A stretch of DNA of 64,000 nt from Mobula hypostoma (lineage: Eukaryota). Shown here in pieces: positions 3,787-61,267 of the stretch. Made by a program: the position numbers and the translations under genes. The stretch covers positions 136,216,001-136,280,000 of the forward strand of contig NC_086097.1 of NCBI RefSeq assembly GCF_963921235.1, written 5' to 3'. Every line of letters starts with the position of its first letter. The stretch's first letter is position 1. The notes under the pieces are model-generated. The model saw only the letters and a list, made by a program, of their open reading frames with translations. It did not search any database and had not been told where the DNA came from.

Positions 3787-3789
3787 AGA

Positions 3790-4041
3790 CCAGAAAATCT
3801 GCAGGAGCTGGAAATTCAAGCAACACAAAAGATGGTTGAGGAGCTCAGCAGGTCAGGCAGCTTCTATGGAAAAGAGTAAACAGCCCAAGACCCTTCATCA
3901 GGACTGGAAAAAGAGATGAGAACTTCTCGTCTTTTTTTTTCCAGTCCTGGTGAAGGGTCTCGGCCCAAAACATCGACTGTTTTGTCTTTTCCATAGATGC
4001 TGCCTGGCCTGCTGAATTCCTCCAGCTTTCTGTGTGTTGCT
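3790..4041. mobile_element. Penelope-derived mini-element with inverted arms and two decayed hammerhead motifs
   Basis: Minus arm ..gacccttcatcaggactgg (about 3889-3907) and plus arm ccagtcctggtgaagggtctcggcccaaaacatcgactg (3941-3979); outer arms are reverse complements. Confidence 0.75.
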
Positions 4042-4159
4042 CTGCTCAGTTTGTTAGGTTTGAGAATTGGCAGCAAACTGGCAGCCACGGACAAAAACGT
4101 CTCCACTGCACCAGGTGAATCTCTGATTTCCGGTGCTGCTTGTGGTGGCTGAGAGAATT

Positions 4160-6820: not shown

Positions 6821-6917
6821 CAAAGAACACAATGTGCTAGAGGGACTCAGCAAGTCAGTCAGCATCTACGGATGGGAACAGAGAGTCAATGTTTCAGGCC
6901 GAGACCCTTCGTCAGGA
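6821..6917 (-). mobile_element. Penelope-derived 97-bp mini-element with hammerhead motif
   Basis: TSD caagattgttattg (6807-6820) / caagcttgttattg (6918-6931); minus strand reads (g)tcCTGACGAagggtctcggcctGAAAcATTgactc. Confidence 0.8.
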
Positions 6918-7667
6918 CAAGCTTGTTATTGTACCTGTGCCTTGCTGTATTTGTGCACTAGACAATAAACTCGACTTGAAATAAGACCATAAGACCATAA
7001 GACAAAGGAGCAGAAGTCGGCCATTCGGCGCATCGAGTCTACTCCGCCATTTTATCATGAGCTGATCCATTCTCCCATTTAGTCCCACTCCCCCACCTTT
7101 TCACCATAACCTTTGATTCCCTGGCTACTCAGATACCTGAGTATCTGCAGCCTTGGAGAAAGAAGCAGCTCTTGTGTTTGCTGATGAGCTTCGATTGTAA
7201 GTGGGGAAGATTTGGGAGGGCGCTGTTGTTTTTTGTCACCTTCCAGAGAGTTTGGAGGACTTTGGGGTGGCAGCACTGCAGGTGAGTTGGAGACACAAGC
7301 GTCTGCAGGTGCTGGGACCTGGAGCGAAAAAACAAACTGTCATAGGAACTAAATGGTTCAGGCAGCATCTGTGGAGGGGTTTTTCCATCAGGAAGGAGGT
7401 GTAGGAGTTTTAGGTCCCACACCATCAGGTTCAGTTTCAGGAACAGTTATTATTTTTCAGTCATCAGACTCTTGAACCAGAGTGGAAAACTTCACTCACC
7501 CCAACACTGAACTGATTGCATAGCCTCTGGCCTCACCTTCAAGGACTTTACAACTCGTGTTCACAATACTTATTACTTATTTATTTATTGTTATTTTCTT
7601 TTCTTTTTCCTCATTGGTTGTTTGTCTTGTTGAGTGCAATTTTACATTTCTTCTATTGTGTTTATAT

Positions 7668-12307: not shown

Positions 12308-12929
12308 TACCGGAGTGATTGATAAGTTCGTGGCCTACAGTAGGATTCAATTTTAGAAAACCTAGCACATTTATTTTTCAGCATAATCCCCTCCTACATG
12401 TACACACTTAGTCCAGCGGTCGTGAAGCATACAGATCCCTTCTTTGTAGAAGTGGTACACAGCAGGGGTGATTGATAAATTCGTGGCCTAAGGTAGAAGG
12501 AGATGACTTATTAACTTCAAACTTTCTGCATTATCACTCAAAGAGTTGAATTGCACGTGCATGTAACAAGAGCGTTTTGGACCTCCAGGTGGTCCATAGC
12601 AGGGGTGATTGATAAGTTCGTGTCCTCGGGTAGAAGGAGATGAGTTATACAGCTCTCATTACGTGCACGTGCAGTCCAACTCTTTGAGTGAAAATGCAGG
12701 AAGTTTGAAGTTTCTCCTCATTCCCTTCTACTTTAGGCCACGAACTTATCAATCACCCCTGCTGTGGACCACTTCTGGAGGTCCAAGATGCCGACTTCTA
12801 CAAAGAAGGGATCCGTATGCTCCACAACCGCTGGACTAAGTGTGGAAATGTAGGAAAAATAAATGTGCTGGGTTTTTTAAAATTGACTCCTTCTACCTTA
12901 GGCCACGAACTTATCAATCACCCCTCATA
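12308..12929. mobile_element. Palindromic mariner-derived MITE with five TIR copies
   Basis: TA-bounded; TIR ggggtgattgataagttcgtggcct forward at about 12312, 12465, 12602 and reverse at about 12735-12760, 12900-12924; both arms carry the mariner transposase C-terminus (FYKEGIRMLHNRWTKC). Confidence 0.8.
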
Positions 12930-16544: not shown

Positions 16545-19122
16545 AAACACAAAATACTCTGCAGATACTGGGGTCAAAGCAACAATCACAACACGCTGGA
16601 GGAACTCAGCAGGTCGGGCAGCATCCGTGGAAACGATGAGTCAACATTTCAGGCCGAATAGTGGCCAAAGGACCTAGGGTAATGGACGAACTGAAGGAAA
16701 TTTATATTAGGCAAGAAATGGTGTTGGATAGACTGTTGGGTCTGAAGGCTGGTAAGTCCCCGGGACCTGATGGCCTGCATCCCAGGGTACTTAAGGAGGT
16801 GGCTTTAGAAATCGTGGACGCATTGGTAATCATTTTCCAATGTTCTATAGATTCAGGATCAGTTCCTGTGGATTGGAGGGTGGCTAATGTTGTCCCTCTC
16901 TTCAAAAAGGGAGGAAGAGAGAAAACACGGAATTTTAGACCGGTTAGCCTGACATTGGTGGTGGGAAAGATGCTGGAGTCAATTATAAAAGATGAAATTA
17001 TGACACATCTGGATAGCAGTAACAGGATCGGTCTGAGTCAGCATGGATTTACGAAGGGGAAATCATGTTTGACTAATCTTCTGGAATTTTTTGTGGATGT
17101 AACTATGAAAATGGACAAGGGAGAGCCAGTGGATGTAGTGTACCTGGACTTTCAGAAGCCTTTGATAAAGTCCCACATAGGAGATTAGTGGGCAAAATTA
17201 GGGCACATGGTATTGTGGGCAGAGTACTGACAAGGATTGAAAATTGGCTGGCTGACAGAAAACAAAGAGTAGCGATTAACGGGTGCCTTTCAGAATGGCA
17301 GGCGGCGACCAGTGGGGTACCGCAGGGTTCAGTGCTGGGACCGCAGCTGTTTACAATATATATTAATGATTTAGATGAGGGAATTAAAAGTAACATTAGC
17401 AAATTTGCCGATGACACAAAGCTGGGAGGCAGTGTTGAATGTGAGGAGGATGTTATGAGAATGCAGGGTGACTTGGACAGGCTGGGTGAGTGGGCAGATG
17501 CATGGCAGATGCAGTTTAATGTGGATAAATGTGAGGTTATCCACTTTGGTGGTAAGAACAGCAAGGCAGATTATTATCTAAATGGAGTCAAGTTAGGAAA
17601 AGGGGAAGTACAACGAGATCTAGGTGTTCTTGCACATCAGTCACTGAAAGCAAGCATGCAAGTACAGCAGGCAGTGAAGAAAGCTAATGGCATGCTGGCC
17701 TTCATAACAAGGGGAATTGAATATAAGAGCAAAGAGGTCCTTCTGCAGTTGTACAAGGCCCTGGTGACACCACACCTGGAGTACTGTGTGCAGTTTTGGT
17801 CTCTAAATTTGAGGAAGGACATTCTTGCTATTGAGGGAGTGCAGTGTAGGTTCACAAGGTTAATTTCCGGGATGGCGGGACTGACATATGTCGAAAGGTT
17901 GGAGCGACTGGGCTTGTATACTCTGGAATTTAGAAGGCTGAGAGAGGATCTGGTTGAAACATATAAGATTATTAAGGGATTGGACACGCTGGAGGCAGGA
18001 AGCATGTTCCCGCTGATCAGTGAGTCCAGAACCAGAGGCCACAGTTTAAGAATAAGGGGTAGGCCATTTAGAAAGGAGTTGAGGAAAATCTTTTTTTACC
18101 GAGAGAGTGGTGAATATATGGAATGCTCTGCCCCAGAAGGCTGCGGAGGCCAAGTCTCTGGATGCTTTCGAGAAAGAGATGGATAGAGCTCTTAAAGATA
18201 GAGGAATCAAAGGTTATGGGGATAAGGCAGGAACTGGATACTGATTGTGGATGATCAGCCATGATCACAGTGAACAGTGGTGCTGGCTCGAAGGGCCAAA
18301 TGGCCTACTCCTGCACCTATTGTCTATTGTCTATTATTGTCTATTGACTGAAGAGGGAAGGGGCAGAGGCCCTATAAAGAAGGTGGGGGGGGGGTGGGAA
18401 GGAGAAGGCCGGTAGGTTCCAGGTGAAAAACCAGTAAGGGGAAAGATAAAGGGGTGGGGGGGGGGAACAGGGAGGTGATAAGCAGGAAAAGTGAAGAAGG
18501 AATAGGGGAAAACACAATGGGTAGTAGAAGGAGGCAGAACCATGAGGGAGGTGATAGGCAGCTGGGGGAGGGGGCAGAGTGACATAGGGATAGAGGAAGG
18601 GAGGGGGAGGGAATTACCGGAAGCTGGAGAATTTTATGTTCTTACCAAGGGGCTGGCAACTACCTAAGATGGTATATGAGGTGTTGCTCCTCCAACCTGA
18701 GTTTAGCCTCAATATGGCAGTAGAGGAGGCCATGTATGGACATATCTGAATGGGAGTGGGAAGCAGAGTTGAAGTGGGTGGCTACCAGGAGATCCTGTCT
18801 GTTGTGGCGGACGGAGTGGAGGTGCTCGACGAAGCGGTCCCCCAATCTGCGTTGGGTTTCACCGATGTAGAGGAGGCCGCACCGGGAGTACCGGATGCAA
18901 TAGATGACCCCAACAGACTCACAGGGGAAGTGTTGCCTCACCTGGAAGGATTGTTTGGGCCCCTGAATGGTGGCAAGAGAGGAGATGTGGGGACAGGTGT
19001 AGCACTTACACTTACGGGGATAAGTGCCGGGTGGGAGATCCGTGGGGAGGAACGTGTGGAGCAGGGAGTTGCGGAGGGACCGATCCCTGCGGAAAGCGGA
19101 GAGGGGTGGAGAGGGATAATCA
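16545..19122 (-). mobile_element. Penelope-like element (GIY-YIG endonuclease + pLTR), 5'-truncated, interrupted by CR1
   Basis: ORF 18660-19268 contains CKCYTC..FPCESVGVIYCIRYSRCGLLYIGETQRRLGDRFVEHL..HFNSASH..EEQHLIYHL; perfect TSD gatcccctgattat at 16531-16544 and 19123-19136. Confidence 0.92.
16658..18346 (+). mobile_element. Young CR1 LINE, 5'-truncated, RT with frameshifts
   Basis: ORFs 16661-17188 and 17188-18186 (KSPGPDGLHP, QHGFTKGKSCLTNL, SGVPQGSVLGPQLF, SKFADDTKLGG); (ctattgt)n tail 18317-18346. Confidence 0.96.
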
Positions 19123-20990
19123 GATCCCCTGATTATCTCCTGGGCTTCCTGTCTCTCCTCCATGTTGTTCTCTCCCCCATCACCAGTCCCCGCACCGAAA
19201 GAAATGAAAGGAGGAGGGGCACCAGACGGATGCGATAGGTGGGTGAGGAGAAGGGAAGGAGCAGCCAAAATGGGGAATGGAAAATGCGAGGTGGGGGAGG
19301 GAAGAGAAATTACTGAAAGATGAAGACATCGATGTTCATTTCTAAAAATTAATTCATTTGTTCATTTACAGGATGCAGGTGTCGCCAGCTAAGCCAGCAT
19401 TTATTGCCCATCCCTAGTTGCCTTTGAGAAGATGGTGACGAGCTGAGAAGGTGGTCATACCATCAGGTTAGAGGCTGCCCGACTAGAATGTGATGTGTTG
19501 CTCCTCCAACCCGAGAGTGGCCTCGCCGTGGCAACAGAGGAGGCCATGGACCAAGATGTCGGGGTGGGAATAGAAAGTGGAATTAAAAGGAAAGGCCACC
19601 AGGAAATCCTGCCTGTTGCAGAAGGCGCTCGACAGCCTCCAGATGCTCAGCTACCTGTCGTTGTGCCTTAGGTTTCCAGCATCAGCACTGCTTTGGTTTT
19701 TCAAGGGTTAATGAGTCACAGAATTGCAAAGAGACATATCACAGAAACAGGCCCTTCAGCCCATTGATTCTGCACTGACCATCAACCACCCACTTATACT
19801 AATTTTACACTAACCTCGTTTTATTCTCCCCACATTCCTGTCAATTTACCCCAGATTCTACCACTCACCAACACACGGGGGGTAATATACAGAGGCCAAC
19901 CTGCACACCTTTGGAATGTGGGAGGAAAGCAGACCACCCATATTGAACCTGGGTCTCTGGAGCTATGAATCACCCCATATTTTATTGTAATTTGCATTGC
20001 ATTCTGGGAGGAATATTTAGCTCACAGCCCGCGCATTGCAGACCACCTGCTCACCTTCCAACTCACATCTTTGTTGTTTCCAGCAGCTAATTAAAATAGA
20101 TATTTCTCCCCAAACAAATGCCTAAATCCCTAAATTACTCTGCAGATTGATATCTGTCTGGGACTCAGGGAAGGTGAATGAACACACACATTACCTCCCA
20201 GACTTTAGGGGTTAGTAAACTAGAATTAAACTCTTATGAGGTAGATAAGGAGCCAATAAATTCACAGTTAAATTGAAAAACTCAAGTGTCAGATAAGAGT
20301 TTAAGGATTAGGAAAACTGTTTGCAGTTCTATGCCAGGGGGCTGCTTAATTAATGAAGGAGTTGCCACAGTCTAGTGCTTGGGAATGATTTTTATCTCTC
20401 AGGAAGTGGAATAATTCCGAGTCAATCAATTGATGTTGGGTCAACAGAATGAGTTTGAAAGACCTTTACCATGAAATACTTTACAACATGCTTTCTTTGC
20501 TTTAGCTGTATTGGTTAGAGATTAAAGGACGTTCTGTTTGACTGCATACAATGGAGGAGCTTGACAGGAAACGTCCATCTGACCTTTTCTGTCCATTGTG
20601 AGGTTGTTAACAAGGTGGGGAGAGGCCATTGAACTGAAGGTAGATTGATATGAATGAAGGGTAATGTTTCTGGGCCCCAAGACACTGGCGGGAATCTGTA
20701 TTTGAGGTGATTGCAGTTCGCGCTCTCATCAGGAGCTGCTGGAAGGTCAACGTCTCAGCAGAAGAAGTCCTTGGGTCTGCCCGAAATTTGTTTGTCTTCC
20801 ATCGCAGCGAGATGTCCATTGGTATTGTTGATAACTGGCACATTCCAGGCTACAGGAGGTACGCTTGGCTTTGCCAATGCAAAGGCTCTGTGGGTTAGGA
20901 CCAGTTGCGTTTAAGGGGAAGAACCTCAAACAATGAAATGGTGTATCATCCCAGGGGGCTACATGGGGCAATGAAGCTATGGTTTGTATA

Positions 20991-21079
20991 CACGAGGAAT
21001 TCTGCAAATGCTAGAAATTCAAGCAACACACATCAAAGTTGCTGGTGAACGCAGCAGGCCAGCAACTTTGATGTGTGCT
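20991..21079. mobile_element. 89-bp Penelope-derived hairpin insertion (no hammerhead)
   Basis: Perfect TSD gctatggtttgtata at 20976-20990 and 21080-21094; arms cacacatcaaagttgctgg / ccagcaactttgatgtgtg. Confidence 0.85.
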
Positions 21080-22177: not shown

Positions 22178-22308
22178 AAACACAAAATAATCTGCAGATG
22201 CTGGAGACAATGCAACACTCACGAAGGGTTCCGGCCCAAAACGTCGACCGATCTTTTCCACGGATGCTGCCCGACCTGCTGATTTCCTCCAGCGTGTAGA
22301 GAGTGTTG
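22178..22308. mobile_element. 131-bp Penelope-derived mini-element with inverted arm and mutated hammerhead
   Basis: Perfect TSD ccctgtgggagt at 22166-22177 and 22309-22320; acgaagggttccggcccaaaacgtcgacc at about 22221-22249. Confidence 0.85.
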
Positions 22309-23015: not shown

Positions 23016-23205
23016 AGCAACACCCACAAAAAATGCTGGTGAACGCAGCAGGCCAGGCAGCATCTATGTGTCCTGACGAAGGGTCCCGGCCCGAAACGTC
23101 GACTGTGCCTCTTCCTATAAATGCTGCCTGGCCTGCTGCGTTCACCAGCACTTTTTGTGTGTGTTGCTTGAATTTCCAGCATCTGCAGATTTCCTCCTGT
23201 CTGCG
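23016..23205 (+). mobile_element. 190-bp Penelope-derived mini-element, hammerhead inside a long hairpin
   Basis: TSD attagaaggatccg (23002-23015) / attagaaagatccg (23206-23219); about 50-bp inverted arms 23016-23068 vs 23117-23169. Confidence 0.9.
23070..23103 (+). ncRNA. Minimal type-I hammerhead ribozyme motif (intact core)
   Basis: gtc CTGACGA a gggt cccg gccc GAAA C GTC gac; predicted cleavage after 23100; helix III reduced to palindromic ACGT. Confidence 0.8.
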
Positions 23206-23706
23206 ATTAGAAAGATCCGCCCTGTATTCCAGCAATCCTTTCCAAACCTGGGCCAAATATCGAAGATGGCCCTCTTTACTGAGTTTCCTCAGCTAATCTT
23301 TTTTTTTGTATTGCAAAAATAGACTTTATGCATAATATATGTAGTAAATACAGTTGGTACACATCTTTCTCTACATTAAGTATATAATCAATTCAATATA
23401 TTTTCTTAAAATACTGTAGGTCATCACTATTCACATTTCCTCTTTAAACAGTGCACCCATGAAGTGTTTAAGAAGCTGTTACACCAAACCAAATCCCTCA
23501 GTGTCGAGACAGGTAGAAGTCTAGACTGGAATCACAAGAAACTGTGCCAGATGCTGGAATCTGGAGAGAAAAACAGATTGCTGAATGAACTTAGCAGGTC
23601 AGGCAGCATATGTGGAGGCTTAGCATGTCATGATTGTGGGGCCTCAACTCAAAACTTCAGCTACCCTTTCCATCTTCAGCTGCTGACTGACCTAATGAAT
23701 TTCTTC

Positions 23707-23834
23707 CTGACGAAGGGTCTCGGCCTGAAACGTCGACTGTACCTCTTCCTAGAGATGCTGCCTGGCCTGCTGCGTTCACCAGCAACTTTGATGTGTGTTG
23801 CTTGAATTTCCAGCATCTGCAGAATTCCTGTTGT
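23707..23834 (+). mobile_element. 128-bp Penelope-derived mini-element starting exactly at the hammerhead core, nested in an older related repeat (about 23533-23865)
   Basis: Perfect TSD taatgaatttcttc at 23693-23706 and 23835-23848; insert begins CTGACGAagggtctcggcctGAAACGTCgactg. Confidence 0.9.
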
Positions 23835-26134
23835 TAATGAATTTCTTCAGCAGATTGGTTTTTGACCCACGATGTGATCTTTCCCCACAGACCCTTTGCA
23901 GTAACTGCACCAAGAATCATTCACTGATAATATGCTGATCCCTTTATCCATTGAGTCGCAGAGTTAGCACAGAAACAGGCCTTTAGGCCTAGCTCATCCA
24001 TCCCAGCCAGTGTGCCTACCTGAGCTAGTCCCATTTGCCCGCATTTGACCAATATCCCTCTAAACCTTTCCTACCCACGTGTATGCTCAAATGTCTCTTT
24101 AAGCATCGCAATAATTATCTGCCCTTTGTGACCTCCTCCAGTCTGGGCCCCTGTGCTTCTCCAAGTCCAAATGGTAGGGAGTACTGAGTGGGTCAGTTCG
24201 CTCCGTTGCTGGAATCCATCCCAAAGTTTACCACAACCCCCTCCCCTGTTCTGCGCAAGCCTGGAAAGAGTTATTATCTGTGGAAACAGGAAATGTACTC
24301 TGATATCACAATGTTTGTAAAGTGATGTTGGTACAGTAATGACGCCAAAAGGGAACAGGGAGGGATCCTGCTGTTGCCTCTGTTAGGTATGTGGGAGACC
24401 AAAACACTGATGCATGTTAGCAGAGACTTGATGCTGAGATTCTGATTCAGGGAACGCTGGCTGGAAGGTCCCACTCATTTCCTCCCTAGCCCAGAGGCCA
24501 AAGGATACGGTGTATGTTCTGAGAGATTTGTCTGTGCTTTCTTCAGATTGGAAAGGATAGCGAATTTATTTACTGATGCATTCAGGGGTGAATAAAATAT
24601 CACTCAAAGTAAAGCTCAATTTTCCACCTGACATGCACAAGACTGGGAATTTATTAGCACCTAGAAGAATCCTCTCAAAAATGGCGAGCGGAACCAATCG
24701 ATTTCCACTGGCACATCTGACTAATCCTACAGACGGCCCCCAACCTCCCACACCATCCCCAGACCAGGTTGCTGAAGGCAGCTGACTAAAGCAACGTTGA
24801 TATGTTAATCCACAGGAGTTCCCCTCACAATTGATTGGATTGCCCAAGTTTCACAAAGTGCCTCGAGTGTCAATGACCAGACACAAATGGTACCCACCAG
24901 TGACCTTATAGGCGTAGTGGTCGGTCGTTCCCTCGGTCATCTGTGCCAACTGGGAGAAGTAGAGTGAGCAACAGTGGTTTCACCCTCTGTTCTTACTTCT
25001 ACTGACATCGGTGAGAGACATACACGGTGCCATTGACTCAGAGACATAGAAGGGAAACAGGACCTTTGTTCCTCCGAGCCACACTGACAACCAAGCACCC
25101 ATTTCCAACCTCAGACAGTTAATCTAAGCAACATTCTCATTAGCTGCCCCCCCAACCCTGCTCTATCCATTAACCCCGTCACTGCACTTCAAAACACTTT
25201 TTATAATACATTGTAAATACATGTTGTTACTAATGTATTTATGCACATTTTAGTCTATACTTTAACATCTAACTTTGTTTTTTATGTAATTCTTTCTTCG
25301 TTATAATTGTTGTTTTATGTTGCACATCACACCCTGAGCAACACATCACCGCAAATTCCTAATACATGTAAACGTCTATGGAGCATGAAGATGATGCTTG
25401 ATCCTTGACTTACACCAGGCCTGCACCAATCCCACTTCATCCTCCTCACACTCCCATCAACTTCTCCCAGATCCCGCCACTCACCTACACCCTCGGGGTA
25501 AATTACAGCGCACAACCAGCCTTTCAACCCCCACAGTACTGGGACGTGTCGGGAAACCGGAGTACCCAGAGAAGACCCATGCGGTCACAAGGAGACTGTG
25601 TAGACTCCACACCGGCAGTGCTGGAATCTGATTTCTGCAGCCAAGAGATAGCAGCATTACTAATTGCACCACAGAGTCATCCCTTCCCATTGATTGGGGA
25701 ACAAAGGGTTTCATTTTAGAAAAGCCTGACTTGAGTCATACCTGTTATCAATGTGTTACCATCTGACCAAGGCAGAAGGAAGCTCCTGTGAACCATCCTC
25801 TCTATGAGGGAGCTTGACAGCTCTGCTGGCCCAAACGTCGTCCTCTGCACTATCTCTTCAATTACAACTCCGGTCAGGTGGCAGACACCTGCCCTCTCGA
25901 GCCCGCAAGTTGTGGGTTCAAAACCCTGGGCTGATGCACATCCTGCCAGAGGAGCTGTGTTTCACCACGAGGGGATGTCTTCGCTCAGAGGGTGGTGAGA
26001 ATGTGGAACGAGCTGGTGGATGTGGATTTAATTGCAACATTTAAGGACAGGTACAGTGAGTGGTATGAAGGGCTATGGTCCATGTGCAGGTCGATGGGAT
26101 TAGGTAGACTAACAAATACAAGAAAGGCTTCAGA

Positions 26135-26346
26135 TGCGGAAATCCAAAGCAGCACACAAAAAACACTGGAGGAACTCAGCAGGTCAGGCAGCATCTGTGG
26201 AAAAGAGTAAACAGTCGGCATTTCAGGCCGAGACCCTTCATCAGGACTGAAGAAGGGTATCAGCGCGAAACCTCAAGTGTTTTTACTCTTCCTCATAGAT
26301 TCTGGCTGACGTACTGAGTTGCTCCAGCATTCACTAGGTGTTGCTC
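26135..26346. mobile_element. Penelope-derived mini-element with back-to-back decayed hammerheads, inside a CR1 3' fragment
   Basis: agtcggcatttcaggccgagacccttcatcaggactg (minus) directly followed by ctgaagaagggtatcagcgcgaaacc (plus). Confidence 0.7.
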
Positions 26347-29109
26347 AGTATGGAGTAGATGGGCCAAAAGGCCTGTTTCTGCGATGTAGTGCTCTACAGC
26401 TCCATAACGCTGTGTGAAACTGAACCACCGGTGGGAGGAGGTGACCCCAAGGATCACATATGTAAAAAAAAAGAATGGGAGCTCCAGGTGCAACATTTAC
26501 CTCTCAACCAAAGTCAATGGGCTGTCGTCACAGTGTTGTGTGGGGGTTGATGCTGATGCTCTGTGATGCTGCTGCAACATTTATAATGCCCTTTGCATAC
26601 ATGTAATTGTGTATATGGCAATCAACTTGACTTTGACTTTGACTTTGCCATGCACAAATTGGCCTTTGCATTACCTCCTTTGTGCTTTCTCATTATTCCT
26701 TTACTTTGCACAATTTACTACTTGTAATTTATAGTGATTTTCTGTCCACAATATAACAAATTTCTCGACACATAAATCCATGATAATAGTTTTGATTCTG
26801 ATACTGATTTAAAGAATGTTTCATTGGCTGCAAGTTGCTTGGGGGTCACTTGAGAGGTCATGAAGTGTAGGGTTTCAGGACTACCAAGCTCAGTCGCCTG
26901 GTCTGCAGCTTTTGCCACGGCCCCTGATACTCACACAGAACTGAGCAACACAAATTGTAAAATTTCACTTTTACTTGTTGTTTTGACTTGCTTAAGTGCA
27001 TCCATACTGTGTTGTCATTGTTGGTATGGTGATTATGTCCATTACGACATGTTTTTGACAATTAACACTTGCCCTTGGAGAGTTTGTGAGAGGGGTGGAG
27101 TGCTGCACGTGCTCTCAATCCCATCTCCGAGACCATGCCTATGAAAGACCAGGGCAGTGTGTGCTGTGTAAAACACATCAAATCAAAGATTCTCCGAGCC
27201 TTGGGCAGTTTAGTGGAGAGTAACCTGATATTTTGTGCGGTGGTCCTGACGTACGGGCCTCCCTCCCTCCCTCCCTAACTGACATAAAGTTGAGGGAATA
27301 ACGGAGCATTTCAACTTCAATCGTTGCCATGACAGCCGAAGTCTGTTATGGAACCAGTGACGGCACACTTTTGCAAAACATCTTACTTTGAGTTTAAATT
27401 CTGATGTCATCCTGTCACCTGTTAATTATTAAGGCCATTGCAAAGAGCTGGCAATAACTCAGTCTGCTCAACACTGCAGCTAAAACCTAATGGATGTCAG
27501 AAAGCTATGTTCTGCTTTGACCAAGCAGCTACACTTCGTAAAATTTGCTGATAGGCTGCTTTTCAGATTACAGCTTTGGTTATTTCTTGATGATGGCCGT
27601 AATTAGTTGATCCAAACACTTATTTCCAGGTCATTAATAGGAGAGAAACAGTTCCAAAGTAAATTGAGGAAAGAGCAAGTTTGAAAAATTCCCAGACTTG
27701 CGTTCTCGTCCTTTGCTGGCTTCAGACCTCGGCAGGGATCTTCAGTAATTTCCTCCAGCACCAGTATTCTCTCACATCTCAGAACTTGTCCAAATCTAAT
27801 CTCCAGAGCAAAACCATCCCTGGCAGCCATTCCCTTCAGCTGCCTGTGCTCTAAGCTCTGGAATTCCATCTCCAAACCTCTCCATCTTTCCTCCTTTAAT
27901 ACCATATTCCCAAGAACATAGCAACTCTTGCCCTCAGCACTAGTATCTCCTTGTGTGGCTTGATATAGAATCATATAATGAACACTCTTTGGATGATGTA
28001 AACACATGGGCTGGTCCTGGACTTATTTCCTGGCATAACTTACATATTACTATTTAATTATTTATGGTTTTATTAATATTTAATTATTTATGTTGCAACT
28101 GTAACGAAAACCAATTTCCCTTGGGATCAGTAAAGTATGACTATGAGTATGACTAAATTGTTGTGGTACTCATCGACATTAAGAAGAAGGATAACACATG
28201 TTGCTGACTTGGATTAGTTTATCGATACAGGTATATATATTCCTTTCTTGCATGAAGCTGAGAGAGTAAACACATACAACACTACAGTGACAATCACAAA
28301 ACACCAGAATGGTGCAAAGATTGTAGTGCAAATTTGAGGTGGTGCTAAAAGAATCGCTAAAGTGACAATAACGGAACAACCAAGAATTAAGAGTCTGAAA
28401 AGATGGTAGCATCCCAGGGAAAGGGAGAGAAAGAGGTGATTGGTTCAGAGGTCAATCAGTGGGGAAGAAGCTATTCTTGAGTTTTGTTGTGCAGACTTTC
28501 AAGTTCCCGTATCTTCTCCCAGACAGCAAAAGTGAGAAGAGAATGGCCAGGGTGGCAGGCATCCTTGACAATACTCAGCCTGAAGCAAGGCATTGTGAAT
28601 TAGGACTGGAGGGAAGAGGTAGGTCTGTGAAGCAACGAAAAGTGATAAGTTGCACCCCTTGAATGAATGCAGAGGTTGGGAAAAATGGGCAGAAGTGTCA
28701 AGGTGCAGCATAGATTAACCAGAGCGGAACGGATACGTCTGCAGGAGAGACTGGACAGGTTGGGTATTCCCACAGAAAGAGGTTTAAGTTTAAAGGAGCT
28801 CAATAGGAAGAAGTAGAACTTTGCTGTATAGAAGGGACCAAGGCGGTAGATCACAAAGACGAGAGAGTTCCAAAAATATCCACCTGGGAGTTCACGAGAA
28901 ATCCTTTCCCCTGGGTTGGAACAAAACAGGAATGTCACTCCCACAGTGAGGAGCTGAGGTGAATGGCTTTCGAGAGAAGACAGCAAACATGGGGGGAGGT
29001 GGAGTGAAGGATGCAGTGATGAAATGAGGTGAAGATTTGAGAAGAGAATAATGAGGTGAAGAAAACCATCACAGAGAAGAGGGGCTGAATGGTCTGTTTG
29101 ACGTTATAG

Positions 29110-41110: not shown

Positions 41111-42835
41111 TGTTGAATTCTGTTCATGTGGACTATGAAAGTATTTAGTATGCATGCGCACTCTCCCTGTTATGTGTGTGCACGTGGGAGGAGAGGGTGG
41201 AATTGTGGAATATAAAGATGGTGGCCCTCAGGGATTGAATAGAGACATTGAAGGTAAAGTTGTTTATACAAAAGAAAAACGTGCCTTTGTTATTTGGGCG
41301 TTAGCAATAGTAACAGAGGGGATCGTTTCCAGTTATAAGATCCTGCCAGCATTTGACGAGAGCAAGCCTTACGAAAGCTGAAAAAGTGAAACTGGAATAT
41401 GAACGTGTTACAGAACTGGAGAAGATGAAGCAAGCCTTGGTTGTTGTGCTGTCAATTTTGGGAAGAGCAAGAGAGACCGCGATGGGAATTTTGGAGGAAG
41501 ACTTGAGCAAAGATAATGATGTGAGTACGCTAATAAATCCACTTGACTGTTTTTTCGAAGGAAGAAAAGGATCGTATTTATGAAGCATATTCAGACTTTG
41601 ACAAAATTTACAGAGACAATTCTAAAAACAGGGATGCTTTTATTACTGATTTTAAACAGAAGTACAGTCGCAGGTGTAAATACAAAATGGAATTTCCTGA
41701 CACTGTCAAGAGAAAATCTGCAGATTCTGGAAATCCAAGCAACACACACAAAATGCTAGAGGAACTCAGCAGGCCATGGTAGCATCTCCGGAAAAAGTAC
41801 AGTCAACATTTCGGACCAAAAGTCTTCGGCAGTCCTGCTGATTTCCTTCAGCATTTTGTGGGTGTTACTCTGATTTCTAGCACCTGCAGAGTTTCTCTTA
41901 TTTGTGAACATGGCATCCAGCACAAGAAATACCACAGTACAATCTTTACATGAAGAAAACAAGATAGTGTGCAGAATTCAATCTGAAAAAGTAGTCTTGA
42001 CGTTTCAACAGCTTGTAAAAAGATAACTCACTGAGGCTCGTTGTCTTCAATGATGTCTCATTTGGGAATCTTCTTGATGAAGGTACTCAAGGGGAACATT
42101 TTATTGTACTGATGGGAGAAGAGGGAAGTTTTTCACTTCTACTGGCAATCAAAAAGGATCCAAAGTGTTTGTATGGAGTACACTGGCAGGAGAAACCCTT
42201 GAAATGTCTGAAGGTTTTGACAATGCTGTTTTCTGGCCACTCTATTCTGAGCTTTTCCATGGTGATGCAAAGAAGGATAGTCTACAGAACACCTGTGTCA
42301 CAGACAACTACTCTTTGGTTGATGCCATCAATTCCACCAAGTCAATTACAAAGAAGAAGCAGCATCAAAGAACTTGTCCAAGCACAGAAAATTCATCACG
42401 TGTTGTGGTCAACGACAAAAGAACAGCGAGTTGAGGGCCTCACAAAGAAAGGAGCACCAGCTCTTATGTTGTTAAAGGCACTTAGTGAAGGCATTCAGTA
42501 CTTTTAAGAATTGTATTAACGTCAAGGATTAGAACTAATTCTCATATCCTAGTGGACATTTGAATTGTTTGGACATCTGATTTGCCCTTAAATTTTTTTC
42601 AAATTTAATTTTTAATATAAGCATAAAAAGGATGAGAGATTGTTGAGTTCTGTTCATTTGAACTATGTAAGTATTTAATACTCATGCGCACTCTCCCTAT
42701 TATGCATGCGTGCTTGGGAGGAGTGGGTGGAATTTGGGATGTAGAGGTGGTAGCCCTCGCGTATTGAAAGGAGACGTTGAATGCAAAGTTGTTTAGACAA
42801 AAGAAAAATGTGTCCTTGTTGGTTGGGCATTAACA
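41111..42835 (+). mobile_element. Internally deleted Ty1/Copia (GalEa-type) LTR element
   Basis: LTRs 41111-41306 (TGTTG..TAGCA) and 42641-42835 (TGTTG..TAACA); aagc on both flanks; PBS-like tagtaacagag 41308-41318; PPT 42625-42639; gag (PAFDESKPYES, KQALVVVLS.LGRARE, EEKDRIYEAYSDFDK) and RNase H (STLAGETL, TDNYSLVDAINSTK, EQRVEGLTKKGA). Confidence 0.88.
41707..41910. mobile_element. Penelope-derived inverted mini-element at the Copia gag/RNase H deletion junction
   Basis: aaaatctgcagattctggaaatccaagcaacacacacaaaatgctagaggaactcagc ... ccttcagcattttgtgggtgtt..tttctagcacctgcagagttt; decayed hammerhead about 41800-41835. Confidence 0.7.
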
Positions 42836-44765
42836 AAGCTGAAAGCATTATTTGACAGGGGAAGATGCCAGCAGGGAGAATCCGAATTTCCTTTCTTATT
42901 GATGGGTCTCCTCTTTAATTCAACGCTTGGGTCATGATGCCCAGAAGTGTCCAAGAGAGCCATAGCAAAGGCAGCAATCTATTCTTCTGTGCCATCTCAT
43001 TCCTCTTGAGATACAATATGTGTAGGCCCCTCACCTGCATCAGCTCCTCAGCAGACTATGTACTGGATGATGATAGAAAGAACAAGGACAGGCCATAATC
43101 AGATGAGTAGGCTCAGAGCATTCTCTCTCTGTGCCATTCAGCTGCCCGGTTGTCTGAATGGCCGGATTTACTGGGTCACCCAGGCTGTCCTGTTCATCAT
43201 GCACTTCAATCTGTGCTCGGCCCATGTTGGACAGCAGAAATGAGAGATCTCTTCTTCCAACTCATCTCAACCATGAGTGCAGAACTTTACCGCATAGTCT
43301 CTCACTGGCCCTCTACCTTGGTACAGGCCCAAGAGTCGATGAGCAGCCTCCTGACCCCATACTGGAAGGTCAAACACTCTCTTGAACTCAACTACAAATT
43401 GCTGGAAAGACCGGGCTGCAAGAGCACCTTGTTCTCATTGGGCACTGAGCAGACTGAGTGAAGGTCTGTTTAAGTGCCTCACCAGTTTAAGTAGATCATC
43501 ACTGAACTGGCCTGGCGGGGATTGGAATGTCAGCTCACACTGGGTGCTAAAGTTTCTGCAGCTGTTGGGGTTGTCGGAGTATCTGACTGGTGGAGGAATG
43601 TTCAGTTCGGGTCCAGAAGCAGCCCAGGGGAATCAGGATCTTAGTGGCTGAGGCTGATGATACTGCAGTAGAGGAGGATGGGGTGTTGCCGCTGTTGGAA
43701 GTGGGGCTGCTGATAGAGAGCGGCTAAATAGCAGCAGTGAGAGACAGTAACACCTGCCACCTGACTGACTGTCTGTTGTGAGCTGCTTGGACTGGGCTTG
43801 CCTCTCTGAGAGTAGTTATCACACCACGGGAGCCACTTCTGCAACCCAGACTCCACTAAAAACTCTCAAACTAAAAACTGATGCTGTTACTGCAGCTTGA
43901 AAGCTACAACTATAACTATAACCATATTAATACCTACAACTACATTAATACCTTTAACAGCATCCACCTAAATTGCTAATCTTCTTTCCTGGAACACGGA
44001 CTAAGGTAAGCAGGGAGCTTTGTAGTCGCTGTTCTTCGATCAAGACCTGACAAGACTGAGACAAAAGGAAGAGCATTAAGTACAGTTACAGTGAAACCCT
44101 GATTGGCTGTAATGTGTGCATTCTCACATGTGTGATTGCCGTCTTCCTTCAGCTGCCCGCATGCGAGAGTGCCCAGACTCCGCAGCGGTGTCCGTGGTTT
44201 TGACAGCAGGTAACAATTACCCTTTGGAGCCCGGTAGAGTCACTGAATCAGTTTCAGAGATGAGAAGATTGTCCCATGAGCCGAGATCAGATGTAAGGGT
44301 GCAAGACTCACTGGAGTTCCGATGACCTGGCTGAGAAGCAGGTTTCTGAGGTGGGATCAGGAGTGTAACTGTCCTCCCTCCAAGTGAAGTATTCTGTCTT
44401 TGACTACAGTATTAAAGCAGTATTATAGAAGTTAAAGCAAGTATGAGCAAGGCCAAATATTCCACTCCTCCTCCTTCCTCTGATCTATTAATCAGATGAC
44501 AGGTGGGCAAGGTACAGTTTTGTCTTCACACAACAAAACATCTGTTGGAGGAGTTCAGGAGTTTGGAGAACCTGTGGTGGTGAAGGTTGGGGAAGGAGTT
44601 GTTGACACTTTGGGTCAAAACCCCGCACGAGTGCACTGTTTCTATTTGTCTCTACACAAAATTTATTTTGATACTGATCATCACTGTCCCTGTCCTCCCC
44701 CAGAAAAGAACTTGCCAAAATGGGTCTGCGACTGGAAGAGGAAATAAGAGATGGAACTAGTTTAG

Positions 44766-44930
44766 AAACACAAGAGATTTTGCAGATGCTGGAAATCCAA
44801 ATCAATACACACAAAATGCTGGATGAACCCAGCAGGTCAGGCAGTATCTGTGGAAAAGAATAAGCAGCCGATGTTTTGGGCAGGGATCCTTCATCAGGAC
44901 CGGAAAGGAAGGCAGAAGAAGCCAGGATTG
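44766..44930 (-). mobile_element. Penelope-derived mini-element, decayed hammerhead
   Basis: TSD tggaactagtttag (44752-44765) / tggaaatagttttg (44931-44944). Confidence 0.75.
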
Positions 44931-54208: not shown

Positions 54209-55085
54209 AGGACGAGAAAATTCCACCATCTCCAACGGGATCCCACCACCAAGCACATCTTTCCCCCTCCCCCACTTTCCACTTTCCACAGAGATCGCTC
54301 TTCCCTACGTGACTCTCTTGCCCATTCGTCCCTCCCCACTGATCTCCCTCCTGGTACTTATCCTTGCAAGTGGAACAAGAGCCACAACTGCCCCTACACC
54401 TTCGCCCTCACTACCATTCAGGGACCTTCCAGGTGAGGTGACACTGCACCTGTGACTCTGTTGGAGGGTCATCTACTGTATCCGGTACTCCCGGCGAGGC
54501 CTCCTGTATATCAGGGAGACCCGGCACAGATTGGCAGACCGTTTGGCTGAGCGGCTACATTCCATCTGCCAGAAAAAAGGGGATCTCCCGGTGGCCACCC
54601 ATTTGAATTCTACATCCCTTTCTCATTCCGACATGTCAGTCCATGGCCTTCTGTACTGCCGCAATGAGGCCACCGCCAACCTGATGGCCTGAACGTTGTT
54701 TTTGCAAACTTCTGGTAATTGCCCCTCCCCCTGTACCATCCCATTCCCATCTCCCTCTCTCACCTCATCTCCTTATCTGTCCATCACCTCCCTCTGTGCT
54801 TCTCCCCCTTCCTCTACCCTCTCTTATCAAATTCTCCCTTCTCCAGCCCTTTACCTCTCACCTATCAGCTCTCCAGCCCTTTACACCATCCCTCCCCCCT
54901 CCCAGTTACACCTCTTACCCACCTCCTTGTACTTCTTCCTCACCTCCCCCTACCTTCTAATTCTAACTTCTTATCTTTTCTTCCAGTCCTGATGAAGGAT
55001 CTCGGCCCGAAATTTCGACTGTTTACTCTTTTCTATAAATACTGCCTGGCCTGCTGAGTTCCTCCAACGTTTTGTGTGTGCCGCT
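54209..55085 (+). mobile_element. Penelope-like element 3' part (GIY-YIG + pLTR + hammerhead) inserted in a Rex1 fragment
   Basis: gtcatctactgtatccggtactcccggcgaggcctcctgtatatcagggagacc (decayed VIYCIR..LLYIGET); TSD tggaactggctga (54196-54208) / tggaaatgtctga (55086-55098). Confidence 0.85.
54984..55021 (+). ncRNA. Minimal hammerhead motif (core intact, helices II/III mutated)
   Basis: cagtc CTGATGA aggatctcggccc GAAA t TTC gactg; 5-bp helix I. Confidence 0.6.
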
Positions 55086-56074
55086 TGGAAATGTCTGAGT
55101 CCACCATTTTCTGTAGCCTCTTGTGGTCCTGTACCTTGGAGTTTCGATTTTGAAACCAGACTAAGATACAACTAATGAGAGTGCTTTCCACAGTACACCT
55201 GCAGAAGTTTGTGGGTGTCTTTGATGACTTTTTGGATCAGCAGGCAGAGACCGAGGCATTGATCCAGACACAAGAACTCAAATCCCACTACAGCAGCTGG
55301 GGAATTTCAGATCAGTTCATGAAATAAAGCTAGTCCCAGCAATAAAAACCATCTAATGACTGGACCATCTGTTTCACTAATGTGGTCCAGAGGAGGAAAT
55401 CTGACTCCTTATCCATCTTGGCTTTAATGTGACTCCAGTAGCTGCCTTAAGAAGGCAGCATCTATGATCAAGAATCCTCATCATTCTGGGCCATGCCCTC
55501 TTTCCCCTGACACCATTGGGCAGGAAGTGTAGAAGCCTAAGGTTTCACACCACCAGGTTCAGGAGCAGTTACTTTCCTGCAACCATCAAGTTCTTGAACT
55601 GACTTTCAGGAGCCTAACCCAGCCTCAGCAATGGAACACTGTAATCTACCTCTCGTACTGATTATGTTTTTCTTTGCATTAATGTCTTGCAGTGTTTTTT
55701 TTTGCCACACTGCCCCAGCAGGCCCACAACCCCAATAAATCCTAACCTAATCAAAGGACAATTTACAATGGTCGATTAATCTTTCCCCGTTTCTCTTTGG
55801 ACTGTGAGAGGAAAGCAAAGCACCCCCGGAAAACCCATGTATACCATGGGAGGACATACAGGGACTCCTGACAGAATTGAACTCCAAACTCTGGAACGTC
55901 CCGCACTGTAATAGCGTCACGCTAACCGCTACAGTACCATGGTGCCCAATATCTATATTCAGTGTGTTGTCTGTACATGCATACAGGTGATACCACCGTA
56001 AGCAAGTTTTTCGTTGTACCTGTACCTCTCCATACTGGTGCATCTGAACATAAACTTGACTTGACCCACAACTT

Positions 56075-59267: not shown

Positions 59268-59379
59268 TTTTCATTTATACTGATGTATGGAATGATTTGT
59301 CTGGATTGCACTAAATTATTCATTGTATCTTTATAAGTGACAATGACAAACCAATTGTCCATGACCACAGAAAAATTAC

Positions 59380-61267
59380 ACACAAAAAATGCTGGTAAGC
59401 GCAGCAGGCCAGGCAGCATCTATAGGATGTACGGTACAGTCGACGTTTCAGGCCGGGACCCTTCGTCAGGACTAACTGAAAGAAGAGGTGATAAGAGATT
59501 TGAAAGGGGGAGATCCAAAATGATAGGAGAAGACAGGAGGGGAGGGGTGGATCTAAGAGCTGGAAAGTTAATTGGCAAAAGGGATACCAGAGTGGAGAAG
59601 GGAGAGGATCATGGGACAGGAATCCTGGGGGGAGAGAGAAGCGGGGAGGGGAGCCCAGAGGGTGGAGAGCAGGCAAGGAGTTATAGTGAGAGGGATAGAG
59701 GGAGAAAAAAGAGAGAGAGAAAAAAAAGGGGGGAGAAATATATTAAATAAATAAATAAGGGATGGGGTGTGACGGAGAGGAGGGTCATTAACGGAAGTTA
59801 GAGAAGTCAATATTCATGCCATCAGGTTGGAGGCTACCCAGACGGAATATAAGGTGTTGTTCCTCCAACCTGAGTGTGGTTTCATCTTTACAGTAGAGGA
59901 GGCCGTGGATAGACATGTCAGAATGGGAATGGGATGTGGAATTAAAATGTGTGGCCACCAGGAGATCTTGCTTTCTCTGGCGGACAGAGCGTAGGTGTTC
60001 AGCAAAACGTTCAGTGTAGGTGTTCAGTGTTATATCTACTATAGGCCCACGGACTCTCACAGCTACCTGGACTATTCCTCTTCCCACCCTTCCTTTCTTA
60101 AAGAAAGAAGCTTCCCTTCCTCCACCATCAACTCTGCTCTCAAACGAAATCTCTCCCATTTCACGCACATCTGCTCTCACCCCATCCTCCTGCCACCCCT
60201 TGTCCTCACCTACCACCCCACCAACCTCCGGGTCCAACACATAATTCTCTGTAACTTCCGCCACCTCCAACAGGATCCCACCACCAAGCACATCTTTCCC
60301 TCCCCCATCTCTCTGCTTTCCGCAGGGATTGCTCTCTACGTGACTCCCTTGTCCATTCGTCTCCACCATCCCTTCCCACCAATCTCCCTCCCAGCACTTA
60401 TCCTTGTAAGCGGAACAAGTGCTACACATGCCCTTACACTTCCTCCCTCACTACCATTCAGGGCCCCAGACAGTCCTTCCAGGTGAGGCGACACTTCACC
60501 TGTGAGTCAGCTGGGGTGATATATTGTGTCCGGTTCTCCCGATGTGGCCTTTTATATATTGGTGAGACCCGACGCAGGCTGGGAGACCGTTTCGCTGAAC
60601 ACCTATGCTCTGTCCGCCAGAGAAAGTAAGGTCTCCCAGTGCCACACATTTTAATTCCACGTCCCATTCCCATTCTGATATGTCTATCCACGGCCTCCTC
60701 TACTGTCAAGATGAAGCCACACTCAGGTTGGAGGAACAACACCTTATATTCCGTCTGGGTAGCCTCCGACCTGATGGCATGAATATTGGCTTCTCTAACT
60801 TCCATTAATGCCCCTCCTCCCCTTCACACCCCATCCCGTATTTATTTATTTAATATATCTTTTCCCTCTCTTTTTTCTCCCTCTGTCCCTCTCACTATAC
60901 CCCTTGCCTGCTCTCCACCCTCTGGGTTCCCCTCCCCCCTTCTCTCTCTCTCTGCAGGCTTCCCGTTCCATGATCCTCTCCCTTCTCCAGTCTGGTATCC
61001 CTTTTGCCAATTAACTTTCCAGCTCTTAGATTCACCCCTCCCCTCCTGTCTTCTGTCCTATCATTTTGGATCTCCCCCTCCCCCTCCCCCTCCTACTTTC
61101 AAATCTCTTACTATCTCTTCTTTCAGTTAGTCCTGACGAAGAGTCCTGGACCAAAACATCGATTGTACCTCTTCCTATAGATGCTGCCTGGCCTGCTGCA
61201 TTCCACCAGCATTTTTTTGTGGGTGTTGCTTGAGTTTCCAGTATCTGCAAATTTCCTTGTGTCTGTG
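59380..61267. mobile_element. Penelope-like element with inverted partial duplication (single insertion)
   Basis: Perfect TSD acagaaaaattac at 59367-59379 and 61268-61280; plus arm 60020-61267 (YYRPTDSHSYLDYSSSHP RT end; GVIYCVRFSRCGLLYIGETRRRLGDRFAEHL GIY-YIG; pLTR); minus arm 59380-60008 duplicates about 60588-61225. Confidence 0.93.
59438..59473 (-). ncRNA. Minimal type-I hammerhead ribozyme motif (intact core)
   Basis: Minus strand: agtc CTGACGA agggtcccggcct GAAA C GTC gact; partner copy at 61129-61164 (+) has GAAA changed to AAAA. Confidence 0.8.

What the first reader, a model, noticed from the sequence alone, without database searches (positions are those of the whole stretch)
23693..23848. 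5' breakpoints of mini-elements cluster at the first bases of the hammerhead
Seen: 23707-23834 starts exactly at CTGACGA after a perfect 14-bp TSD; 6821-6917 starts at (g)tcCTGACGA; the sense arm of 23016-23205 starts at gtcCTGACGA; the hammerhead arm at 22221 starts at ACGA; the arms at 26247 join at CTGA. Five insertions end within a few nt of the same site, about 30 nt upstream of the predicted cleavage site rather than at it. Inference: reverse transcription stalls or switches template at the folded ribozyme, or a discrete short RNA begins here. The cDNA also reads through the cleavage site, which implies an uncleaved, re-ligated/circular or template-jumped RNA.
Basis: partly seen in the sequence, partly recalled or inferred. 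Interest (0 to 1): 0.7.

Follow-up and report, generated by a model that had tools for sequence, protein, structure and literature searches.

The report
Penelope retrocopies starting at hammerhead edge
These are short copies of the end of a known kind of jumping gene in a ray-like fish; about a third of them begin within ten bases of the start of its small self-cutting RNA motif, which most likely marks where the copied RNA begins and not a stall at the ribozyme.

Summary
The five junctions are real, including the perfect 14-bp target-site duplication (TSD) around 23707-23834, and a sixth insertion (41702-41901) fits. They are 5'-truncated ends of Neptune-type Penelope-like elements (PLEs) carrying a minimal hammerhead. 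A census that ignores the hammerhead puts 7 of 19 scorable arms at -5..+4 (+1 = C of CUGA). The other 12 end elsewhere, and 4 of those read hundreds of bases past the site. Scan-corrected p is 0.002-0.03, weakening to 0.02-0.2 if six old, unscorable hits are counted against it. No arm ends between +5 and +44, which covers the cut site and the 3' edges of the helices, so a stall at the folded ribozyme fits poorly. Copying through the cut site needs no circular RNA: uncleaved RNA is the published dominant in-vitro template. Best model (0.45): reverse transcription primes internally near the 5' end of the transcript and runs off an RNA start at about -4 to -8. A 3' splice-site roadblock and hairpin or microhomology joining remain open. 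No genome was held, and the contig test was confounded. This refines known PLE behaviour; it is not a new system.

The parts
23693..23706 (+). Left target-site duplication, 14 bp
   Evidence: identical to 23835-23848
23707..23834 (+). Single-arm mini-element, subfamily A; 5' end at -2..+1; carries the optional tail
23707..23739 (+). Minimal hammerhead core and 3' strand of helix I; predicted cut after 23734. The 5' strand of helix I is lost in this copy, so it cannot form the full helix
   Evidence: sequence read against the min-HHR description in PMC4209133; no Rfam hammerhead hit
23835..23848 (+). Right target-site duplication
23531..23706 (.). Older, decayed two-armed copy of a related element into which the young copy inserted; 5' ends not scorable
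   Evidence: profile hits 23616-23531 (E 3e-11) and 23639-23701 (E 0.06)
6821..6917 (-). Single-arm mini-element, 5' end at -2, no tail, 14-bp TSD (6807-6820 / 6918-6931)
22178..22308 (.). Two-armed insertion, subfamily C; arm 5' ends at +83 and +4; 12-bp TSD
23016..23205 (.). Two-armed insertion, subfamily A; arm 5' ends at +45 and -3; 14-bp TSD
26116..26348 (.). Two-armed insertion; arms join at -5/+1 through a 3-4 base overlap; no TSD found
41702..41901 (.).
20993..21079 (.). Counter-example: two arms ending at +56 and +72, 4-base microhomology, 17-bp TSD
3788..4044 (.). Counter-example: two arms, subfamily B, ending at about -21 and -26
44764..44930 (-). Counter-example: single arm, subfamily B, 5' end at -33, 12-bp TSD
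59380..61267 (.). Long two-armed Neptune-type insertion, 13-bp TSD; both arms read through the hammerhead start into the pyrimidine-rich pLTR and the GIY-YIG end of the ORF
54218..55091 (+). Long read-through arm, subfamily B
16546..19116 (-). Long read-through arm, subfamily C, split inside the hammerhead core by a LINE (about 16658-18345)

Best explanation
The mini-elements are run-off cDNAs from the 5' end of a Neptune-type PLE transcript. Shown here: they are 3'-terminal PLE segments with two 3' end classes (about +91..+101 and +126..+131), 12-17-bp TSDs, frequent head-to-head arm pairs, and an excess of 5' ends at -5..+4. Taken from PAc biochemistry (Frangieh 2024): the protein nicks both strands, primes reverse transcription at two internal sites downstream of the hammerhead, uses uncleaved RNA, and the product shortens when the template's 5' end is shortened. 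Inferred: in a partial-tandem PLE the hammerhead-plus-tail segment lies both near the start and at the end of the RNA. Priming in the 3' copy gives long, randomly truncated arms. Priming in the 5' copy gives a 95-135-nt cDNA that runs off the RNA start at about -4 to -8 and loses a few bases on joining. This would work like a retroviral strong-stop product that is integrated directly.
For: 7 of 19 scorable arms end in one 10-nt window. They come from at least three subfamilies whose hammerhead-bearing segments are 62-91% identical, so one amplified master copy cannot explain them. No end falls in +5..+44, as expected if the enzyme passes the ribozyme and stops at a template end. No clustered arm extends past -5. 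An initiator-like YYANWYY word has its A at -4 in 4 of 4 long read-through arms checked. Similarity between subfamilies begins at about -5. Tail asymmetry in 6 of 7 two-armed insertions matches the two internal starts of PAc and fig. 2 of Craig 2021. Two ray gene models with this segment in frame lose similarity to it at -7..-10 (P0021, P0023; 2 of the 2 hits that cover the site).
Against: No transcript start was observed: no RNA holder was listed, and contigs cannot show starts. The initiator word is weak evidence: it occurs 4-8 times in each 270-320-nt pLTR, and its bases are also fixed by pairing in helix I. In D. virilis Penelope the start lies 46 nt before a 75-nt intron whose end, not the start site, maps to helix I (PMC2377424; PMC4209133). 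None of the 7 clustered junctions shows a clear cap-derived extra G. The window holds no copy in which the tail continues into an element body, so the 5' copy is assumed. The two gene models fit a splice acceptor at -7 equally well. The statistics weaken to p = 0.02-0.21 in the worst case.
Confidence: 0.45

Rival explanations
1. 3' splice-site roadblock. The bases just upstream of the core are a polypyrimidine tract ending in YAG at -3 (and at -7 in subfamily A). Proteins bound to this acceptor on unspliced RNA stop reverse transcriptase at their 3' edge, about -2..+4.
For: A YAG ends at -3 in 4 of 4 long arms. The D. virilis Penelope intron ends at the 5' end of helix I (PMC4209133), and PLEs are known to retain introns on transposition (PMC2377424). 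Both ray gene models join at V-S-P-D-E-G, as a phase-1 splice into the -7 acceptor would give. The -21/-26 pair ends next to a branch-point-like word (one event).
Against: The whole pLTR is about 80% pyrimidine with 3-6 YAGs, so the tract is not specific. No joint with intron-type ends at this acceptor appears among the 15 joints shown (198 not shown). None of the 7 clustered arms carries an upstream exon, which argues against a plainly spliced template. The gene models were seen only as protein.
Confidence: 0.17
2. Hairpin or microhomology steering. Sequence upstream of the core is partly complementary to the first core bases, so cDNA folds back or is trimmed at the loop, or two opposing cDNAs anneal there.
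For: In subfamily A a hairpin pairs -18..-7 with +1..+11, with its loop at -6..-1 (-9.4 and -9.8 kcal/mol; 2.5% and 1% of 1000 upstream shuffles were as stable). The 26247 junction uses a 3-4-base overlap, and other junctions show 2-4-base microhomology or a templated filler.
Against: The hairpin is absent in 4 of 4 subfamily-B copies (49-100% of shuffles as stable) and weak as DNA (-5 to -6.5 kcal/mol). Equal or better partners for the core start lie elsewhere in the pLTR. Two of the clustered arms are single arms joined to target DNA, and three other clustered junctions show 0-2 shared bases.
Confidence: 0.15
3. Small-sample effect or ascertainment: truncation is smooth, and the cluster reflects few events plus the fact that similarity between subfamilies stops at -5.
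For: 12 of 19 arms end elsewhere. The contig loose ends at -4 have a consensus that reads as subfamily-B upstream sequence, so this artefact does operate.
Against: Scored ends were fixed by a TSD or by the opposing arm, not by loss of alignment. A hammerhead-free census found the same arms. p = 0.002-0.026 on the scorable set.
Confidence: 0.13
4. One reading: reverse transcriptase stalls or switches template at the folded hammerhead.
For: The ends do lie at the motif's boundary. In copy 23070, which starts at -3, helices I and II are predicted to form (pair probabilities 0.73-0.99). PAc protein assists hammerhead folding, so a protein-clamped fold could release the template only at its far edge.
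Against: The polarity is wrong for a structural stall: 0 of 14 arms end in +5..+44. With upstream sequence present the hammerhead helices are a minor fold (0.25 or less in 4 copies). Hammerhead mutants did not change the product size in vitro.
Confidence: 0.07
5. The template is a cleaved and re-ligated or circular RNA, as for retrozymes.
For: Proposed as tentative for PLEs in PMC4209133; retrozymes derive from pLTRs (bioRxiv 10.64898/2026.07.22.740005).
Against: No tandem hammerhead units in the window (3 rows, all microsatellite). 0 of 19 arms start at the cut site. Every read-through arm is collinear with the genomic pLTR. A circle would not explain ends 30 nt upstream of the cut.
Confidence: 0.03

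Closest known systems
Poseidon of Anolis carolinensis (PAc) and canonical endonuclease-bearing PLE insertions (Frangieh et al. 2024, PMC11167929; Craig et al. 2021, PMC8557442)
   Same: Hammerhead just upstream of two 3' end points separated by an optional 30-40-bp tail; frequent 5' truncation; inverted arms; copying through the uncleaved cut site.
   Different: This family has a Cys-rich RT-EN linker (Neptune type). The parts of those papers that I read do not report a pile-up of 5' ends at helix I; their supplementary coverage figure could not be read.
Minimal type I hammerheads in pLTRs of metazoan PLEs (Cervera and De la Pena 2014, PMC4209133)
   Same: Conserved core, extra unpaired base before helix II, 4-5-bp helix I, palindromic minimal helix III, mostly solitary copies linked to truncated PLEs.
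   Different: Helix II is 4 bp here. Copies starting at +1 or +4 have lost the 5' strand of helix I. That paper does not analyse breakpoints in the parts read.
Penelope of Drosophila virilis (Schostak et al. 2008, PMC2377424)
   Same: Internal promoter in the pLTR; a processing landmark (intron end) at the 5' end of helix I.
   Different: There the start site lies about 120 nt upstream of helix I; my preferred model puts it at helix I, and no intron is demonstrated here.
Non-LTR retrozymes (Cervera and de la Pena 2020, PMC7229834; Li et al. 2026 preprint)
   Same: Short non-coding pLTR-related units with a type I hammerhead and long TSDs.
   Different: No head-to-tail arrays, a minimal rather than canonical hammerhead, and ends that do not map to the cut site.

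Membership tests
Minimal hammerhead of metazoan PLEs | CUGANGA, GAAA and NUH core boxes with an unpaired base before helix II | tested here: met
   read directly in 23707, 23073, 59469 and others, against PMC4209133
Minimal hammerhead of metazoan PLEs | Short helix I (4-5 bp) and helix II closed by G-C | tested here: met
   pairs possible in 59469 and 23073; not met in the 23707 copy itself, which lacks the 5' strand of helix I
Minimal hammerhead of metazoan PLEs | Palindromic minimal helix III (dimer type) | tested here: met
   4-base palindrome between GAAA and the cut triplet in the intact copies
Minimal hammerhead of metazoan PLEs | Self-cleavage as a dimer or with protein | not testable with these tools
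   needs an assay; Rfam gave no hammerhead hit up to E = 1
Endonuclease-bearing PLE, Neptune type | C-terminal GIY-YIG endonuclease | tested here: met
   Pfam GIY-YIG at E 0.0027 and 0.0023, both below the curated cut-off; among the 20 homologues are one named GIY-YIG nuclease and one with PF01541
Endonuclease-bearing PLE, Neptune type | Cys-rich linker between RT and endonuclease | tested here: met
   C-x4-C-x2-C in the reading of 60255-60629; feature named in PMC3846280; Nematis shares it
Endonuclease-bearing PLE, Neptune type | PLE-type RT upstream in the same ORF | tested here: inconclusive
   window copies are truncated before the RT core; relatives carry it (P0001, 92% identical, has a YIDD motif; P0014 has PF00078)
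Endonuclease-bearing PLE, Neptune type | pLTR with hammerhead, inverted 5'-truncated arms, optional tail at one end | tested here: met
   7 two-armed insertions, 6 of 7 with the tail on one arm only
Endonuclease-bearing PLE, Neptune type | Placement in the Neptune clade on an RT tree | not tested
Non-LTR retrozyme | Head-to-tail repeats, each with a hammerhead | tested here: not met
   no such array in the window
Non-LTR retrozyme | Expressed circular RNA | not testable with these tools
   only contigs of guessed RNA runs were available

The most novel reading that the evidence does not exclude
Transcription of these Neptune elements starts at the first base of hammerhead helix I from a promoter inside the 100-135-nt segment. 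Each mini-element would then be a complete transcription unit and template: a ribozyme-headed, SINE-like family fed by integrated strong-stop-like cDNAs. In subfamily A the upstream pLTR forms a competing hairpin that would switch the ribozyme off in the downstream copy and leave it foldable only at the RNA's 5' end.
Probability: 0.2. Interest if true: 0.7.

Novelty: new variant of a known kind. Interest (0 to 1): 0.4.

Why it matters
The PLE transposition cycle is only partly worked out: where vertebrate PLE transcripts start, what the hammerhead does, and how the short inverted copies arise are open questions. If 5' ends pile up at the RNA start, a very large set of genomic copies (about 89,000-112,000 contigs per DNA run aligned to one 671-bp stretch) becomes a built-in map of the transcript's 5' end. 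It would also extend the internal-priming model of Frangieh et al. to the other end of the cDNA. It is directly testable with one genome and the existing in-vitro assay. If the peak vanishes genome-wide, the copies are ordinary truncated PLE ends.

Tried and rejected
Genome-wide test: no genome is held for this window. Pattern scans of viral, genome and metagenome contigs gave 127 loci, none a copy of the element (0 matches), and no related viral locus.

Contigs laid on 59350-60020 (runs X1, X5, X15, X17): position 59473 (-4) is among the listed loose-end sites in 3 of 4 runs (478, 379 and 44 records; agreement 0.38-0.46). Its consensus reads as subfamily-B upstream sequence, so true truncations cannot be separated from the end of cross-subfamily similarity, and 2009 rows were not shown. 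Contigs cover the pLTR upstream of the core in all 4 runs. Summed depth 56 nt upstream is 56%, 30%, 18% and 23% of that in the core, but the tool warns that contig depth cannot rank parts, so I draw nothing from the lower values in the guessed-RNA runs. No RNA holder was listed. No splice-type joint at the acceptor was among 15 of 213 joints shown.

Rfam found no hammerhead family. Protein searches with the element's open frame gave three ray gene models, two of them informative and ambiguous between truncation and splicing. The upstream hairpin as a general cause was rejected because it is absent in subfamily B. One amplified master copy was rejected because the clustered arms belong to several subfamilies. 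The arm at 16657 first looked like a +14 truncation and proved to be a long arm split by a LINE. Selection against intact ribozymes was considered: it could make a step but not a peak (reasoning only). Six old profile hits (7375, 13596, 14646, 21844, 23616, 61548) were left out of the main count and put back as a worst case.

Full report
1. What the sequence is. The window is eukaryotic repeat-rich DNA, and no whole genome is held. The longest, 59380-61267, has two outward-facing arms and a 13-bp TSD. It encodes a Cys-rich linker followed by a GIY-YIG endonuclease (Pfam E 0.0027, below the curated cut-off). Its closest proteins are from rays (92% to a Mobula hypostoma model), and more distant ones carry the RT. 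The Cys-rich linker is the mark of Neptune-like PLEs (PMC3846280). I did not build a tree to place it.

2. The ribozyme motif. Numbering +1 at the C of CUGANGA, the motif has an extra base before a 4-bp helix II, GAAA, a 4-base palindrome, a cut triplet ending at +28, and a 4-5-bp helix I formed by -5..-1 with +29..+33. This fits the minimal hammerhead of Cervera and De la Pena 2014. Rfam has no matching model hit. Activity was not tested. The 23707 copy lacks the 5' strand of helix I.

3. Checking the observation. All five junctions are as described. TSDs: 14 bp perfect (23707), 14 bp with one mismatch (6821, 23016), 12 bp perfect (22178), none found for 26247. To avoid finding copies by the motif under test, I searched with a profile that starts at +40: 24 hits, 0 on the reversed window. 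Nineteen arms have 5' ends fixed by a TSD, by the opposing arm or by long read-through: +83, +72, +59, +56, +45, +4, +1, +1, +1, -2, -3, -5, -21, -26, -33, and four arms running 540 to 1100 bases upstream. I assigned these by eye. Six old hits could not be placed and were dropped. Seven of 19 ends fall in -5..+4, from six insertions, one of them (41832) new. Against smooth truncation, allowing the best 10-nt window to lie anywhere in -60..+85, p = 0.002 (uniform) or 0.007 (constant hazard), and 0.01 or 0.026 with the 26247 pair counted once. The window and range were chosen after seeing the data. The cluster is probably real, moderate in strength, and not a wall.

4. The 3' ends and the arm pairs are known PLE behaviour. 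3' ends fall in two classes, about +91..+101 and +126..+131. Six of seven two-armed insertions have the tail on one arm only. Craig et al. 2021 describe inverted 5'-truncated arms and a 30-40-bp tail often at one end. Frangieh et al. 2024 showed that the tail is the distance between two internal priming sites, that both DNA strands are nicked and extended, that shortening the template's 5' end shortens the product, and that uncleaved RNA is the dominant template. The last point removes the need for a circular or re-ligated RNA. None of the 19 arms starts at the cut site, and there is no tandem array.

5. Why the ends sit at helix I. A structural stall should leave ends at the 3' edge of a helix, because the enzyme meets that edge first (general knowledge, recalled; not taken from a paper read here). 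Fourteen arms enter +5..+44 and none ends there (p about 0.05 at the background rate); seven end just beyond the far edge. That pattern suits a template end or a roadblock lying upstream. Three features coincide at -3 to -8: an initiator-like word with its A at -4, a YAG at -3, and the point where similarity between subfamilies begins. I favour a template end. In a partial-tandem PLE the hammerhead-plus-tail segment is present near both ends of the RNA, so internal priming in the 5' copy would give a short run-off cDNA with a fixed end, while priming in the 3' copy would give the long arms. The clustered arms come from at least three subfamilies, so the boundary belongs to the element and not to one master copy. 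Shown: the ends and their distribution in this window. Inferred: the 5' copy, the start site and the run-off.

6. Against this. No RNA start was seen. The initiator word is common in this pyrimidine-rich pLTR (4-8 per arm). In D. virilis Penelope it is the intron end that maps to helix I, with the start about 120 nt upstream, which makes a splice-site roadblock a serious rival. Two ray gene models join this segment at V-S-P-D-E-G; that is what a splice into the -7 acceptor would give, but also what truncation at -7..-10 would give, and I saw only the proteins. A plainly spliced template is disfavoured because no clustered arm carries an upstream exon. A hairpin joining -18..-7 to +1..+11 exists in subfamily A (1-2.5% of shuffles as stable) but not in B. 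Microhomology explains the 26247 joint well and the other clustered joints poorly.

7. Outside data. Pattern scans returned 127 unrelated loci or nothing. Contigs of two DNA runs and two guessed-RNA runs laid on 59350-60020 gave loose ends at -4 in 3 of 4 runs. Their consensus is subfamily-B upstream sequence with low agreement, a mixture I cannot resolve, and most rows were hidden. I treat this test as inconclusive. Earlier notes of this scan on another genome (e1-7858061, e1-7858579) reached a similar reading after I had noted mine; they are unchecked AI notes and are not counted as support. One note on this genome favours short inverted matches (e1-7809460), and one reports a single copy starting at the cut site (e1-7790562).

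8. Literature seen. PMC11167929: parts 1-2 of 4 and passages; supplement 2 gave panel labels only, supplements 1 and 3 were not read, and Fig. S2 (genomic coverage along the template) may bear on the claim. PMC4209133: parts 1-2 of 4. PMC8557442: passages and section 10. PMC3846280: parts 2-3 of 5. PMC2377424, PMC8969392 and PMC7229834: passages. bioRxiv 10.64898/2026.07.22.740005: parts 1-3 of 5, supplements not seen. PMC12602865: term search, no hits. Searches turned up no report of 5' ends clustering at the PLE hammerhead. The library lacks most subscription papers; Arkhipova 2006 and 2017, Lunse 2017 and Repbase entries (recalled) were not read.

9. Verdict. Observation confirmed; interpretation partly supported. 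The elements are ordinary truncated Neptune-type PLE ends with a known ribozyme motif. The excess of 5' ends at helix I is a plausible, apparently unreported refinement, best read as the start of the copied RNA (0.45), with splice-site roadblock (0.17), hairpin or microhomology (0.15), chance (0.13), ribozyme stall (0.07) and circular template (0.03) as rivals. Interest 0.4.

Noticed in passing
window 16658-18345: A LINE with an RT ORF (17077-18186, RVT_1 E 1e-18) sits exactly in the hammerhead core of a long PLE arm, with about 13 bases of the core missing at the site.
   Followed up: partly
window 59458-59487 (-) and 61115-61143 (+): In subfamily A the upstream pLTR can pair with the first 11 core bases, which would mask the ribozyme when the RNA extends upstream; not seen in subfamily B.
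   Followed up: partly
window 3788-4044, 20993-21079, 22178-22308, 23016-23205, 26116-26348, 41702-41901, 59380-61267: 6 of 7 two-armed insertions carry the tail on one arm only, as if the two nicked strands are primed from the two different internal start sites.
   Followed up: partly
window 59995-60030: The inversion junction of the long element contains a short locally templated filler, like end-joining scars.
   Followed up: no
window 23706-23834, frame starting at 23706: The mini-element has an open 43-codon frame that appears inside three ray RefSeq gene models (P0021 STARD3NL isoform, P0022 CoA synthase, P0023), i.e. predicted exonisation.
   Followed up: partly
window 12575-12790: An unrelated ~200-bp element with long, near-perfect terminal inverted repeats (MITE-like); the Rfam MIR2646 match is far below its gathering score.
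   Followed up: no
window 41330-42507: Decayed protein-coding sequence of unknown family, interrupted by the 41702-41901 mini-element; no Pfam hit for 42019-42504.
   Followed up: partly
window 666-775 and 19455-19588: Further fragments of the PLE ORF end without a following pLTR.
   Followed up: no
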